Counted from the stretch's first letter, positions 1 through 39,006 are shown. The stretch: 39,006 bases of DNA from Bacteroidales bacterium (GCA_017546275.1 JAFYXE010000064.1:1-39006); one strand, 5' to 3'. Program-made: numbers and translations. Notes: a model not told the origin generated them from the letters alone.

Positions 1-1
1 G

Positions 2-83
2 TGCGGGCGAAGGGAATCGAACCCATACGCCTCTCGGCACCAGATCCTAAGTCTGGCTTGTCTACCAATTTCAACACGCCCGC
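2..83 (-). tRNA. tRNA-Leu (TAG anticodon)
   Basis: Reverse complement folds as a cloverleaf: acceptor GCGGGCG/CGCCCGC, anticodon arm CCAGA-CTTAGGA-TCTGG, long variable arm, T-loop TTCGATT, discriminator A. The 3' end is at the window edge. Confidence 0.95.
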
Positions 84-95
84 GATTTGGGACTG

Positions 96-103
96 CAAAT
101 GTA
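96..103 (-). promoter_or_regulatory. Bacteroidetes housekeeping -7 promoter element (TACATTTG) for tRNA-Leu
   Basis: Matches TAnnTTTG 12 nt upstream of the tRNA. Confidence 0.75.
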
Positions 104-168
104 CAACAATTTATCTGATTTGCAAATATCCTTCCTATAAATGCTTCGGAAACGGAATCCAGGACTGA

Positions 169-783
169 TTAGAAGCAGATTCCCAGCCTGATGCTGAAGC
201 TGAGTGCAATGTTGTCGTGGCTTGATCCGAAGTAGTCCCACAACTGGAATCCGTGATGATATCCTGTATCCGCAGGATTTCCATAGGCATAACCGGCACC
301 GACCCAGAAGTCAGCAAGGAACCTCTTGTACAGATACTGATATCCTACTGTTCCGAGCAATGCTCCCATCACAGCCTTCTCCCTCGCTCCAGAGTCCTTG
401 CAATTGTGCAGGCCCGTATTCGTACAATTATACTGATAGTGCGAATAGATGAACTCAGGACGGAGATAGAAACCCTTGAGCGCCACATCATTGTTGCCGA
501 TGAAGAACTTGTGGCCATAACGCAATGTGAATCCGAGCGGCTGGTTCTTATACTTGTCATATCCCGCACTGATGAGGCTGGTGCAGATTTCACCGCTCTG
601 ATGCCAGTTAGGGAAAGCTCTCTCGTACGAAATCTTCGTACTTCCGCTTGTCCAAGACAGGAATGTTATCTTGAGGGAATTAAGATAGTTCGGCTGCTCG
701 AACTCTTTTTCACGCGCATTGCACACTGTTCCCAGAGAAAGGAACATAGCAACTGCCAGAATAGCTTTGAATAGGTTCTTCAT
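169..783 (-). CDS. Exported protein, probable small outer-membrane beta-barrel (DUF3575-like)
   Basis: 204 aa with a signal peptide, amphipathic aromatic-rich strands (GFYLRPEFIYSHY, VGYQY, ADFWVGAGY) and a C-terminal RLGICF. Confidence 0.65.
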   Translation of the reverse strand: MKNLFKAILAVAMFLSLGTVCNAREKEFEQPNYLNSLKITFLSWTSGSTKISYERAFPNWHQSGEICTSLISAGYDKYKNQPLGFTLRYGHKFFIGNNDVALKGFYLRPEFIYSHYQYNCTNTGLHNCKDSGAREKAVMGALLGTVGYQYLYKRFLADFWVGAGYAYGNPADTGYHHGFQLWDYFGSSHDNIALSFSIRLGICF

Positions 784-789
784 AGGTAT

Positions 790-819
790 AAAAAAAGTGA
801 GTTCTGCTCGAACTCACTT
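790..819 (-). terminator. Intrinsic terminator after tRNA-fMet
   Basis: Perfect 10-bp inverted repeat AAGTGAGTTC/GAACTCACTT followed by a U-run on the minus strand. Confidence 0.8.
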
Positions 820-825
820 GCTTAG

Positions 826-898
826 TAGCGGGGGGTGGAATCGCACGCACCGACCTTCGGGTTATGAGCCCGACGAGCTACTACTGCTCTACCCCGCG
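826..898 (-). tRNA. Initiator tRNA-fMet (CAT) with atypical D-loop and T-arm
   Basis: C1:U72 mismatch, anticodon arm TCGGG-CTCATAA-CCCGA with three consecutive G:C pairs, D-stem GAGC/GCTC. Confidence 0.9.
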
Positions 899-909
899 AT
901 ATTGGACTG

Positions 910-917
910 CAAATATA
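910..917 (-). promoter_or_regulatory. -7 promoter element (TATATTTG) for tRNA-fMet
   Basis: TAnnTTTG 11 nt upstream of the tRNA; context GGACTGCAAAT is shared with the tRNA-Leu promoter. Confidence 0.75.
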
Positions 918-36617: not shown

Positions 36618-36623
36618 AACGGG

Positions 36624-37448
36624 CTACAGACCTTTAGCTTTTCCTTCGTCCCAGATTGCATCCATTTCGGCGAGGGTCATATCTGTAAGATTGCGTCCCT
36701 GACGGATAGTCTGCTCCTCGAGATAAGTGAAACGACGCTTGAACTTTGCACAGGTACGTTCCAACGCGGTATCCGGATTAAGACCGTAAAGTCTTGCTGC
36801 ATTTACAGTTGCAAAAAGGAAATCTCCAAGCTCGTCCTCAGCGCGGTCATATGCGGCAGCCTTTTCCTCGTCGGTCTGAGCTGCAGCCATAGCATCAAGC
36901 TCAGCCTGATACTCGCCCATCTCTTCCTTCACCTTATCCCATACCTGCTCCTTGCACTCCCAGTCGAAACCGACTCCTCGCGCCTTGTCCTGCATACGGT
37001 AAGCCTTGAGAAGCGGCGGAAGTCCGTCAGGAACTCCGGAAAGCACTCTCTTGTTACCGTCCTTCTCCTTGGTCTTCAGCATCTCCCACTGCTTGATGAC
37101 ATCCTCGGCGCTTCCCACCTCAGCAGATGAGAACACGTGCGGATGACGATATATAAGCTTATCACAGAGGAAGTTGATCACATCGACGATATCGAAGTTC
37201 TGCTTCTCCTCACCGATCTTGGCATAGAACAGAACGTGCAGAAGCACGTCGCCGAGTTCCTTTGACAATTCGCGCTCCTCTCCCTTGAGAACAGCGTCGC
37301 TCAATTCGTATACTTCTTCAAGTGTCTGCGGACGGAGAGACTCGTTTGTCTGCTTTCTGTCCCAAGGACACTTTTCCCTCAATTCATCAAGAACATCCAG
37401 TATGCGGCCGAATGCCTGAAGCTTTTCTTCTCTTGTATGCATATTCAT
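36624..37448 (-). CDS. mazG: Nucleoside triphosphate pyrophosphohydrolase
   Basis: CPWDRKQT, EEVYE, ELGDVLL, RHPHVF, GFDW, ELGDFLF; start may be 37442. Confidence 0.95.
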   Translation of the reverse strand: MNMHTREEKLQAFGRILDVLDELREKCPWDRKQTNESLRPQTLEEVYELSDAVLKGEERELSKELGDVLLHVLFYAKIGEEKQNFDIVDVINFLCDKLIYRHPHVFSSAEVGSAEDVIKQWEMLKTKEKDGNKRVLSGVPDGLPPLLKAYRMQDKARGVGFDWECKEQVWDKVKEEMGEYQAELDAMAAAQTDEEKAAAYDRAEDELGDFLFATVNAARLYGLNPDTALERTCAKFKRRFTYLEEQTIRQGRNLTDMTLAEMDAIWDEGKAKGL

Positions 37449-37461
37449 TTATAGTGAATTG

Positions 37462-37497
37462 CAAAGTTAGCAATTCTGCAAAAAATAACTATCTTTG
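37462..37497. promoter_or_regulatory. Divergent promoter pair (mazG-tcdA / CoA-transferase)
   Basis: TAACTTTG on minus at 37462-37469; TATCTTTG on plus at 37490-37497. Confidence 0.7.
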
Positions 37498-37516
37498 GCG
37501 AGCTAATCCCACAATT

Positions 37517-38824
37517 ATGCGTAAAGAGATCAGATTCGTTTCGGCTGAAGAAGCCGTAAAGGTTGTCAAGTCAGGCGACCACATACACCTCAGCAGTGTC
37601 GCAAGTGCGCCACGTCTCCTCATCGATGCACTCTGTGCACGTGGAGAAAGAGGAGAACTCAAGGATGTGCGCATCCACCATCTTCACACAGAAGGAGCCG
37701 CACCTTATACAGACCCTAAGTTTGACGGAGTATTCTTCCACCAGGCATTCTTTGTCGGAGCAAACGTCCGCAAGAGCGTCCAGGCAGGATATTCAGACTA
37801 TATTCCTGTATTCCTCAGCGAGACCCAGAAACTTTACCGTTGCGGTGCCCTCCCTTGCGATGTGGCAATGATCCAGGTATGTCCACCTGACAAGCACGGC
37901 TATGTTTCACTCGGAACATCTGTGGATGCCACCCTCGCAGCAATCGAGTGCGCAAAGACAGTTATCGCCGTAGTCAACCCTAACGTGCCACGCGCTTGGG
38001 GACAGGCTATGATCCCTATGGATATGATCGACATCTTCGTAGAGGGCAACGAGCCTCTCGAGCCAGCTCACTTCAGCGAGCCTAACGAAGTGGAGATTGC
38101 TATCGGAAAACACTGCGCCGGACTTATCGACGACGGAGCCTGCCTCCAGATGGGTATCGGAGCTATTCCTAACGCAGTTCTCGCACAGCTCGGCAACCAT
38201 AAGAACCTCGGAGTGCACACAGAGATGTTTGCAGACGGAGTTCTCGAACTTGTGGAGAAGGGAGTGATCAACGGTTCAAACAAGGTAACAGACAAGGGCA
38301 AGCTCGTATCTACATTCCTTATGGGCTCGCAGAAGGTATATGACTTCATCGATGACAACCCTATGGTTGCAATGATGGATGTAGGATACACCAACGACCC
38401 GTTCGTGATCGCAAAGAACCCTAAGATGACAGCCATCAACTCTGCAGTACAGATCGACCTTACAGGACAGGTCTGCGCAGACTCTATCGGAACACGTTTC
38501 CACTCTGGAGTAGGCGGACAGGTGGACTTCATCTACGGAGCGTCCCTCGCACCTCAGGGCAAGGCTATCATCGCTATGCCTTCGACAACAAACAAGGGCG
38601 GCAGCAAGATCGCACCTACCATCATCGAGGGAGGTGGAGTCGTAACTACAAGACCTCACGTACACTATGTGGTGACTGAGTTCGGAGCGGTAGACCTTTA
38701 CGGAAAGTCAATGCAGGAGCGCGCCAAACTGCTCATCAGCATCGCTCACCCTGACCATCAGGAAGCACTCGACCGCGCGGCGTTCGAAAGATTCGGTCCA
38801 CACTACACAACAGTGAAGATATAA
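37517..38824 (+). CDS. Acetyl-CoA hydrolase/transferase family (4-hydroxybutyrate or butyryl-CoA:acetate CoA-transferase-like)
   Basis: SAEEAVKVVKSG, LQMGIGAIP, GVHTEM (catalytic Glu), SGVGGQVDF, IAHPDH; start at ATG 37517. Confidence 0.9.
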   Translation: MRKEIRFVSAEEAVKVVKSGDHIHLSSVASAPRLLIDALCARGERGELKDVRIHHLHTEGAAPYTDPKFDGVFFHQAFFVGANVRKSVQAGYSDYIPVFLSETQKLYRCGALPCDVAMIQVCPPDKHGYVSLGTSVDATLAAIECAKTVIAVVNPNVPRAWGQAMIPMDMIDIFVEGNEPLEPAHFSEPNEVEIAIGKHCAGLIDDGACLQMGIGAIPNAVLAQLGNHKNLGVHTEMFADGVLELVEKGVINGSNKVTDKGKLVSTFLMGSQKVYDFIDDNPMVAMMDVGYTNDPFVIAKNPKMTAINSAVQIDLTGQVCADSIGTRFHSGVGGQVDFIYGASLAPQGKAIIAMPSTTNKGGSKIAPTIIEGGGVVTTRPHVHYVVTEFGAVDLYGKSMQERAKLLISIAHPDHQEALDRAAFERFGPHYTTVKI

Positions 38825-38827
38825 GAA

Positions 38828-38865
38828 AGAGGCTGACCCAAAAGGTTAGCTTCTGTTTTTTTTTT
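38828..38865 (+). terminator. Terminator after the CoA-transferase
   Basis: AGAGGCTGACC-CAAAA-GGTTAGCTTCT (two G:U pairs) followed by GT10. Confidence 0.8.
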
Positions 38866-38880
38866 GGGGGGGTGAAGAGA

Positions 38881-38988
38881 AGTCCAGGAGGATAACAACG
38901 GAAAACTAAATCCCTCCCACTTCGTGGGCCCCTCCCGTTCACAAGGCCACGGGCGGCCATGGTTTTCCTTATCTTACCCTCCTGAACT
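38881..38988. repeat. Structured non-coding element with nested inverted repeats (REP/MITE-like or ncRNA)
   Basis: AGTCCAGGAGG/CCTCCTGAACT, GATAA/TTATC and GGAAAAC/GTTTTCC enclose hairpins CCCAC-TTC-GTGGG and CCCGT...ACGGG. Confidence 0.5.
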
Positions 38989-39006
38989 ACCACGGCGTAC
39001 CTTAAA

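What the first reader, a model, noticed from the sequence alone, without database searches (positions are those of the whole stretch)
1..39006. Near-total purge of the tetranucleotide CATG from the chromosome
SEEN: reading the whole window by eye I found one CATG (38958-38961, in the terminal non-coding element) and none in any gene or tRNA. At about 50% GC, 39006/256 gives about 150 expected. Other 4-bp palindromes (GATC, TCGA, AGCT, TGCA, GTAC) are common. Genes generally prefer C-ending codons (ATC, AAC, TTC, GAC, CAC) but switch to the T-ending synonym before Met: ATT-ATG 6184-6189 (polA), CAT-ATG 7502-7507 (sigma), TTT-ATG 20253-20258 (phoH), AAT-ATG 26213-26218 (clpC). KNOWN: CATG is the target of NlaIII/CviAII/FatI-type enzymes and H. 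pylori M.HpyI, and R-M site avoidance in hosts is usually only partial. INFERENCE: depletion this deep suggests a long-lived CATG-directed force. Options are (a) a nuclease or DNA-modifying toxin with weak or no protective methylase, so that self is defined by lacking the motif, (b) motif-specific C>T erosion by methyl-C deamination or biased patch repair, giving TATG/CATA, or (c) reservation of the motif as a rare chromosomal signal. No causal gene is visible in this window.
Basis: partly seen in the sequence, partly recalled or inferred. Interest (0 to 1): 0.88.

Follow-up and report, generated by a model that had tools for sequence, protein, structure and literature searches.

The report
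Gut bacterium purged of CATG sites
This uncultured gut bacterium has removed over 99% of the DNA word CATG from its core genes by silent changes, likely because mobile CATG-cutting restriction systems come and go in its lineage, although none is found in this genome assembly.

Summary
Confirmed and genome-wide: 1 CATG against 166 expected in the window, 148 against about 6,630 in the genome. Outside acquired islands the ratio is 0.005. The organism is a Ca. Cryptobacteroides relative. The loss is by synonymous change in all three codon frames, so it is selection against the site, not C>T erosion or a reserved signal. In the genus 68 of 300 genomes are depleted, scattered over the tree. Two unrelated methylase-nuclease cassettes occur in 14 of those 68 and in 0 of the other 232: an IceA/NlaIII-type system, and an unnamed predicted PD-(D/E)XK nuclease with a C5 methylase. 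In this genome's clade the two occupy the same lptG-ilvE slot, which is empty here and in the sister species. Yet selection is still active on both branches (139 of 139 sites held). Best reading: restriction-site avoidance kept up by strain-variable cassettes. A third, unseen agent is not excluded. The phenomenon is known (H. pylori GTAC, over 50-fold), and this scan has noted CATG purges in giant viruses and AGCT/ACGT purges in other bacteria. New here are the repeated origins, the cassette swapping and a candidate CATG enzyme family.

The parts
1..39006 (.). CATG-purged core chromosome: housekeeping genes (hisS, polA, leuS, phoH, gyrA, clpC, prfA and others), none holding CATG
38958..38961 (.). 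The only CATG of the window, inside a REP-like repeat at the contig end; the second copy (contig C103) reads CACG
38925..38966 (+). Part of the REP-like repeat that matches a copy on contig C103 (40 of 42 bases); related copies lie at the ends of C65 and C89
6184..6189 (+). ATT-ATG in polA (Ile-Met with the disfavoured T-ending codon)
   Evidence: genome-wide ATC is 72% of Ile codons but 1% before Met
7502..7507 (+). CAT-ATG in the ECF sigma gene
20253..20258 (+). TTT-ATG in phoH
26213..26218 (+). AAT-ATG in clpC
13669..16434 (-). leuS, used as the phylogenetic marker for relatives
2..83 (-). tRNA gene without CATG
826..898 (-). tRNA gene without CATG

Best explanation
The chromosome has lost CATG by synonymous changes under continuing selection against the site itself, likely because mobile type II restriction-modification cassettes predicted to cut CATG move in and out of strains of this lineage. 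SHOWN: the purge; its presence in all three codon frames and in non-coding DNA; its maintenance since the split from the sister species; the confinement of two unrelated cassettes to depleted genomes; their use of one chromosomal slot in this clade; the empty slot here. INFERRED: (1) cassette 1 cuts CATG, by membership of the IceA/NlaIII family; (2) cassette 2 cuts CATG and methylates its C, from co-occurrence only; (3) each chromosomal CATG carries a small cost when a cassette is resident (self-cutting at unmethylated sites, on arrival, or after loss of the methylase); (4) because only some strains carry a cassette at a time, one genome per species shows it in about 3 of 10 cases, while time-averaged selection (a depletion of about 200-fold needs only 2Ns of about 5) keeps the core clean; (5) newly acquired islands arrive with CATG and are cleaned afterwards.
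For: All frames: NNC before ATG falls to 0-2%, CAT+G 17 against CAC+G 1,907, NCA+TG 0-2%. At sites where undepleted relatives have CATG the commonest replacements are the synonymous CACG, CTTG/CGTG/CCTG and TATG/AATG/GATG. Genus survey: ATCATG under 130 per Mb in 46, under 250 in 68 of 300 genomes. IceA nuclease (PF05315, E 2.6e-113) has strong hits in 8 of 301 genomes and its D12 methylase at 68% identity or more in 10 of 301, all depleted. The second nuclease is in 4 of 301, all deeply depleted. Together 14 of 68 against 0 of 232 (Fisher p 3e-10, rows not independent); carriers need 12 changes on the tree. An unrelated family's purged genome (G342, 1 CATG against 71) also has the IceA cassette. 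Flanks of metagenomic IceA loci: 8 of 28 testable have no CATG, median O/E 0.38, against 1 of 75 and 0.82 for leuS loci. Same slot between lptG and ilvE: cassette 1 in G206, cassette 2 in G319 and G321, empty in G268 and undepleted G075. Second case: the peptidase-nadE-metX interval holds cassette 1 in G100 and G118 and cassette 2 in G130. Turnover: low GC (0.35-0.45), decayed copies (G126 no IceA, G169 truncated, G338 fragment, G319 frame break, G061 broken methylase), and nuclease genes closer than host leuS between distant hosts (synonymous distance 0.20-0.23 against 0.44-0.45). CATG is the rarest of 12 palindromes inside cassette 2 (6 against 33).
Against: No cassette in this genome (68% complete) or its sister G268 (95%): no D12, N4/N6, C5 or type I methylase, Vsr, HNH or Mrr in G000; profile and tblastn searches empty. 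In run X1 the lptG contig runs straight into the ilvE side, so the slot is empty in that population. No IceA-like contig at this organism's depth in 4 of 4 runs, only pieces at depth 2-5. 33 of 46 deeply purged genomes had no hit in the 300-genome searches (one, G061, later showed a broken methylase). 4 of 5 purged genomes reached through loci had neither nuclease. The tree-aware pair test is not significant (same way 4.3, opposite 0, ties 6.7; median p 0.125; the tree is enriched for depleted rows). H. pylori carries IceA/M.HpyI yet does not avoid CATG (PMC2588503, PMC10423294). Several IceA loci have flanks at O/E 0.5-0.9. No cutting or methylation was measured; fold searches for nuclease 2 gave no significant match.
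Confidence: 0.7

Rival explanations
1. A third, still unrecognised CATG-directed agent is resident in this species and in most purged genomes. It could be a restriction system of an unmodelled family, a non-methyl modification system, or a nuclease held in check without a methylase. The two cassettes would then be passengers that settle easily in genomes already free of CATG.
For: Selection is active on the G000 and G268 branches (139 of 139 two-fold codons before Met end in T in both, where controls give P(C|T) 0.35; 106 of 106 His+G are CAC; four-fold distance 0.25) although neither shows a cassette. Near-complete, deeply purged genomes such as G275 and G308 have no C5, N4/N6, NlaIII-type or type I methylase hit.
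Against: No candidate among the low-GC or uncalled ORFs of G000 by inspection. The trait flips at least 14 times on the tree, so the agent must be mobile and as easy to miss in binned genomes as the cassettes. Islands and a prophage-like region with many CATG persist in G000 and G268, which an unguarded constitutive nuclease would not allow. A full subtraction of proteomes was not possible.
Confidence: 0.18
2. A passive scar: a CATG system was lost in the ancestor of G000 and G268 and the sites have not yet come back, as in the 'traces of lost R-M systems' model.
For: Empty slot; the model is in print (PMC4687349); 22 genomes at 130-250 per Mb, with 1 carrier in the 300-genome searches, could be decaying scars.
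Against: 65 orthologues have diverged by 25% at four-fold sites without regaining sites: 1 and 0 CATG in 25,531 codons; chance of 0 changes in 139 about 2e-26 on the control rate. It holds only if both species lost the system very recently, which merges with the best explanation.
Confidence: 0.05
3. Mutational erosion: deamination of methylated C in CATG, or biased patch repair, turns CATG into TATG/CATA.
For: TATG/CATA is enriched (1.41); TATG is the commonest replacement before Met; cassette 2 has a C5 methylase, which could add to the loss in its carriers.
Against: The site is equally lost where only T>C or A>N changes are silent. GATG/CATC is enriched as much (1.37). No C5 methylase or Vsr in G000. 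Carriers of the adenine-methylating cassette are purged as well.
Confidence: 0.04
4. CATG is reserved as a rare chromosomal signal (replication or repair mark of a housekeeping methylase).
For: Conserved orphan CATG methylases with origin-linked site clusters exist in haloarchaea (PMC4752239).
Against: No conserved methylase across purged genomes. Residual sites are in acquired islands, near contig ends (21 of 32 within 600 bases) or in tRNA-Met and tRNA-Lys. Flanks show no consensus. Close kin switch state.
Confidence: 0.02
5. An artefact of composition-based binning that kept only CATG-poor contigs.
For: G000 is 68% complete and poor in islands; its sister has six times more ATCATG per Mb (115 against 18), so the genome-wide 0.022 is probably biased low.
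Against: Core genes are purged in G268, G206, G319 and G321 as well, while orthologues in G075 and G078 are normal.
Confidence: 0.01

Closest known systems
Host avoidance of orthodox type II restriction sites, including traces of lost systems (Rusinov et al. 2015, PMC4687349; passages and first part of the Discussion read)
   Same: A 4-bp palindrome under-represented in host chromosomes, tied to type II systems, often in genomes whose relatives rather than themselves encode the system.
   Different: Their threshold is 0.78; here the core is at 0.005. Their lost-system traces are passive, whereas here selection is still acting on cassette-free branches. Their main text does not mention CATG or Bacteroid- (supplements not seen).
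GTAC scarcity in Helicobacter with the HpyAXII/PabI system (PMC2588503 and PMC10273834; passages read)
   Same: Over 50-fold loss of a 4-bp palindrome (114-184 sites per genome); nuclease active in only 18.9% of strains; H. hepaticus scarce in GTAC without an orthologue.
   Different: There the methylase is kept in 92% of strains and the system is ancestral. Here whole cassettes are absent from most purged genomes, two unrelated cassettes alternate, and the state has switched many times within one genus.
NlaIII / IceA1-M.HpyI CATG system (family PF05315; specificity from passages of PMC10423294 and a reference title in PMC3261200; PMC137426 itself not held)
   Same: Cassette 1 of the relatives has an ICEA nuclease (E 2.6e-113) directly upstream of a D12 adenine methylase.
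   Different: It carries an extra upstream N4/N6 methylase and sometimes an EVE-like nuclease gene. H. pylori has CATG at its highest motif density, not depleted. It is not found in the window's genome.
REBASE-predicted m5C CATG systems of Bacteroidota (M.Cly7489ORF1631P, M.PspHUN102ORFAP, M.PspHUN102ORFJP with a partner nuclease; rows of supplement S3 of PMC4752239); FatI recalled from memory as the type enzyme
   Same: A C5 methylase with partner nuclease predicted for CATG in Bacteroidota, as inferred for cassette 2.
   Different: I could not compare sequences, so cassette 2 may or may not be this family. Its nuclease has no Pfam, PADLOC or source name.

Membership tests
Host avoidance of type II restriction sites | Short palindrome strongly below Markov and codon-shuffle expectation, genome-wide | tested here: met
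Host avoidance of type II restriction sites | Loss through selection on the site, not one mutation type | tested here: met
   all three frames and non-coding DNA
Host avoidance of type II restriction sites | Cognate system encoded in the same genome | tested here: inconclusive
   not found in G000 (68% complete), slot empty
Host avoidance of type II restriction sites | Cognate system encoded in close relatives and tied to the depletion | tested here: met
   14 of 68 against 0 of 232; three of five members of the clade
Host avoidance of type II restriction sites | Residual sites methylated in carrier strains | not testable with these tools
   needs SMRT or nanopore data
Passive trace of a lost system | Sites return at the neutral rate after loss | tested here: not met
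   0 of 139 and 0 of 106 opportunities taken at four-fold distance 0.25
NlaIII/IceA1 system (cassette 1 of relatives) | ICEA-family nuclease with His and Cys motifs intact | tested here: met
   PF05315 377 bits; DHKDGR, CK..ND.KR..C..C and GC.GC present
NlaIII/IceA1 system (cassette 1 of relatives) | Adjacent D12 N6-adenine methylase | tested here: met
NlaIII/IceA1 system (cassette 1 of relatives) | Cuts CATG | not testable with these tools
   inferred from family and co-occurrence
Orthodox type II system (cassette 2 of relatives) | Separate nuclease gene beside a C5 methylase | tested here: met
   4 of 4 loci
Orthodox type II system (cassette 2 of relatives) | PD-(D/E)XK nuclease fold | tested here: inconclusive
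   invariant D162, D171, K173 on strands of a confident model (pLDDT 94); Atlas neighbours SinI and MjaI at only 0.78-0.79; fold searches not significant
FatI-like m5C CATG system | Sequence homology to FatI or REBASE m5C CATG entries | not testable with these tools
   no named reference sequence available; searches gave no enzyme names
Vsr-type patch repair or m5C erosion | Vsr and C5 methylase present, loss confined to C>T/G>A | tested here: not met
Orphan housekeeping methylase signal (Dam, CcrM, haloarchaeal m4CATG) | Methylase conserved across the affected lineage, conserved site clusters | tested here: not met
   (oriC region not identified)

The most novel reading that the evidence does not exclude
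Cryptobacteroides species flip into a self-reinforcing CATG-free state. Once purged, a species can take up, swap and drop any CATG restriction cassette at almost no cost. Cassettes held by a minority of strains, or a third agent not yet recognised, then enforce the purge species-wide, for instance by cutting CATG-bearing alleles that arrive by recombination from cassette-free strains. The genome sequence itself would act as a standing immunity slot, and cassette 2 would be an unnamed CATG restriction family with C5 protection.
Probability: 0.3. Interest if true: 0.78.

Novelty: new member of a known kind. Interest (0 to 1): 0.52.

Why it matters
It gives an unusually clean natural experiment on how restriction systems rewrite host genomes: one word, purged up to 200-fold, switching state at least 14 times among 93 sampled relatives, with two unrelated enzyme systems tracking it and sharing a slot. 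It makes a standing question testable: is avoidance in genomes without the enzyme a fading scar or kept up by strain-level turnover? Here the data reject the fading scar. It also shows that word depletion can assign a target to an unnamed nuclease family (151 clusters), and warns that tetranucleotide binning is distorted in these gut bacteria.

Tried and rejected
Methylase families in G000: PF02086, PF01555, PF00145, PF02384 gave no match; PF07669 gave two sub-threshold hits on PrmC-like ORFs. A motif scan of six frames found only RsmD- and PrmC-like proteins. Vsr, HNH and Mrr: 0 of 5 genomes each. A DNA search for cassette remnants in 5 purged genomes was empty and had no positive control. 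The EVE-like nuclease as a lone agent: only 3 of 301 genomes, all within cassette 1. No methylase cluster shared by the purged genomes among those fetched; the DpnII-type cassette occurs in both groups (only the best 30 loci of each search were fetched). Rows set aside: weak nuclease hits in G163 (undepleted, 35% over 78 residues) and G328 (42%), and 10 D12 hits at 28-42% identity (9 undepleted genomes and G074), judged other families from the identity gap. The cassette-2 methylase was searched by protein only in 38 depleted or intermediate genomes, so its two extra hits (G061, G328) are not in the association test. Nuclease 2: no match in 61 genomes of the order, in plasmids or viral contigs; fold searches gave best Z 4.8 and E 0.28. 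IceA nuclease: no PDB relative, no viral contig, one weak plasmid hit; its methylase had 4 viral-collection hits at 41-57%. Phages of the lineage: a G268 prophage-like region has O/E 0.31 and its one viral relative 0.53, too little to judge. Reads: no IceA cassette at this organism's depth at 80% likeness; cassette 2 was not tested in reads. A first IQ-TREE run did not finish; trees are FastTree. Literature searches that found no report of this purge in Bacteroidales: (listings only; subscription papers not covered). PMC7560954 and PMC3141236 passages were of no use.
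Full report
OBSERVATION. The window is contig C52 of a 1.49-Mb, 68% complete assembly, which has 148 sites against about 6,630 (O/E 0.022). Codon shuffling gives 4,812-4,938 expected in genes against 97 seen; non-coding DNA has 45 against 524; 202 of 226 5-kb blocks have none. 116 of the 148 sites fall in about 57 kb of islands that I delimited by eye (genes that look like SusC/SusD, glycoside hydrolases and transposases on inspection), with O/E from 0.14 to 0.9. The rest of the genome has 32 against 6,349 (0.005), 21 of them within 600 bases of a contig end and three in tRNA-Lys and tRNA-Met. The window's own site is in a REP-like repeat whose other copy reads CACG.

SELECTION, NOT MUTATION. 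C-ending codons make up 52-84% of the two-fold families but 0-2% before Met; His CAT followed by G occurs 17 times against 1,907 for CAC; NCA before TG falls from 15-42% to 0-2%; C precedes only 6 of 831 ATG starts. Where undepleted relatives have CATG, this genome mostly has the silent alternative of each frame: CACG, CTTG/CGTG/CCTG, or TATG/AATG/GATG. These need T>C, A>N and C>N changes, so neither methyl-C deamination nor patch repair suffices; no Vsr or C5 methylase was found.

WHO HAS IT. The nearest named leuS relatives are Ca. Cryptobacteroides. Using ATCATG per Mb as a proxy, 46 of 300 genus genomes are under 130 and 68 under 250, while most lie at several hundred (low values transcribed by hand). 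On a 93-row leuS tree enriched for depleted rows, the state needs 23 changes, 14 forced by well-supported branches (FastTree). This genome groups with G268, G206, G321 and G319, all purged; the next kin G075, G078 and L029 are normal. Outside the genus two Alistipes loci and one Bacteroidaceae-labelled locus are purged too, and other Bacteroidales purge GGCC, GATC, AGCT, GCGC or CTAG. Deep palindrome loss is thus a recurrent habit of the order.

THE LIKELY AGENTS. Cassette 1 is an N4/N6 methylase, an ICEA (NlaIII-type) nuclease, sometimes an EVE-like nuclease, and a D12 methylase. The nuclease has strong hits in 8 and the methylase in 10 of 301 genomes, all depleted. IceA1 is described as CATG-recognising and M.HpyI as a CATG methylase (PMC10423294 passages; reference title in PMC3261200, whose own text prints CTAG). 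Cassette 2 is a 273-residue protein with no Pfam, PADLOC or source name, an invariant D..D-x-K motif and a confident model without a significant fold match, beside an HTH-C5 methylase. It is in 4 of 301 genomes, all deeply purged. CATG is the first or second rarest word around all four (CTAG is low genus-wide) and the rarest palindrome in its own genes. REBASE predicts m5C CATG systems in Prevotella and Cellulophaga (PMC4752239 supplement S3 rows); I could not compare sequences. Combined: 14 of 68 against 0 of 232. The tree-aware pair test points the same way but is not significant. Independent support: G342 of another family and metagenomic IceA flanks (28 of 67 loci long enough; 8 with no CATG, median 0.38, against 0.82 for 75 leuS loci; some loci are near-duplicates).

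TURNOVER. Between lptG and ilvE, G206 has cassette 1, G319 and G321 have cassette 2, and G268 and G075 have nothing. In this genome the two contig ends overlap by 37 bases, and a contig of run X1 at chromosomal depth crosses from lptG to the ilvE side: the slot is empty. Near nadE, G100 and G118 have cassette 1 and G130 has cassette 2. Cassettes are AT-rich, several are decayed, and some are closer between distant hosts than leuS is.

THE PUZZLE. The purge is not a fading scar. In 65 orthologues shared with G268 (25,531 codons, four-fold distance 0.25), 139 of 139 two-fold codons before Met end in T in both genomes, although control sites are mostly C and differ often (P 0.35); 106 of 106 His+G are CAC; none of 329 four-fold sites before Met uses C although 62 differ. 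Yet neither assembly shows a cassette, four runs show no IceA-like contig at this organism's depth, and 33 of 46 deeply purged genomes had no hit. The simplest account, by inference, is that cassettes are strain-variable and poorly binned, so one genome per species catches about 3 in 10, while a small time-averaged cost per site holds the core clean. A third unseen agent remains possible (0.18). An unguarded constitutive nuclease is unlikely because CATG-rich islands persist.

KNOWN CONTEXT. Host avoidance of type II sites, and its presence in genomes whose relatives hold the system, is established (PMC4687349, passages and part 1 of the Discussion). H. pylori has GTAC over 50-fold below expectation with the nuclease active in 18.9% of strains, but does not avoid CATG despite IceA/M.HpyI (PMC2588503; PMC10273834; PMC10423294; passages only). 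Six searches listed no paper on a CATG purge in Bacteroidales; the supplements of PMC4687349 were not seen and may list such genomes. Earlier notes of this scan describe CATG purges in giant viruses and AGCT or ACGT purges in other bacteria without an enzyme; none covers this genome or nuclease 2.

VERDICT. Real, extreme, and a new member of a known kind. Its value lies in the repeated origins, the interchangeable cassettes, the evidence of continuing selection in cassette-free genomes and a candidate CATG enzyme family. Interest 0.52.

Noticed in passing
window 1-39006 and genome G000: CTAG is also depleted (5 against 39 in the window; 0.19 genome-wide) and is near zero in many Bacteroidales loci, purged of CATG or not. 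No CTAG system was looked for.
   Followed up: partly
L030, L094, L074, L032, L079, L024, L025, L082; G319 (L291, L292, L348): Lineage-specific near-purges of other palindromes in Bacteroidales: GGCC (0.00-0.12), GATC (0.08), GCGC (0.00), AGCT (0.14-0.22), GTAC (0.14), ACGT (0.09).
   Followed up: no
L353:6576-7727; also L129-L132, L182, L373: A 383-residue protein with weak EVE and restriction-nuclease hits sits between the IceA nuclease and its methylase; in G126 it remains with both methylases after loss of IceA. Possibly a modification-dependent nuclease.
   Followed up: partly
L375:694-1482 and most IceA loci: A second, N4/N6-type methylase precedes the IceA nuclease in most of the 67 metagenomic loci; by analogy with DpnA (recalled) it may protect single-stranded DNA. 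Untested.
   Followed up: partly
G000 contigs C23, C69, C70, C126, C135; L352:5292-6152; window 38861-39006: Several similar-looking ORFs, one of which (in G268) has a weak Y1_Tnp hit (E 6e-4), and REP-like repeats at contig ends, suggesting a RAYT/REP family that fragments the assembly.
   Followed up: partly
L258-L264, L272 and others: A three-gene cassette that looks DpnII-like on inspection is present in at least 11 of the 80 genomes searched, in both CATG classes; GATC is low (about 0.2) in G275 and G306, of which only G306 shows it.
   Followed up: partly
L238 (G268:C73): The sister genome carries a SacI-family nuclease with a C5 methylase, not cleaned of CATG.
   Followed up: partly
L409 (G268:C110:20001-36279): A prophage-like region on the contig that is syntenic with the window has CATG at O/E 0.31.
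   Followed up: partly
genome G000: Codons GGG, CGG, CCC, CTA, TTA and CAA are almost unused (0-3% of their families), which fits the CCCG/CGGG deficit of 0.59.
   Followed up: no
G000 contigs C15/C96 and C27/C133: Pairs of contigs with like-sized ORFs at matching motif positions (321-residue PrmC-like; C27 and C133 both 2,631 bases), possibly strain duplicates in the bin.
   Followed up: no
L035: A contig of a genome labelled Eggerthellaceae has a leuS that groups with Ca. Egerieousia (Bacteroidota); likely mislabelled or contaminated.
   Followed up: no
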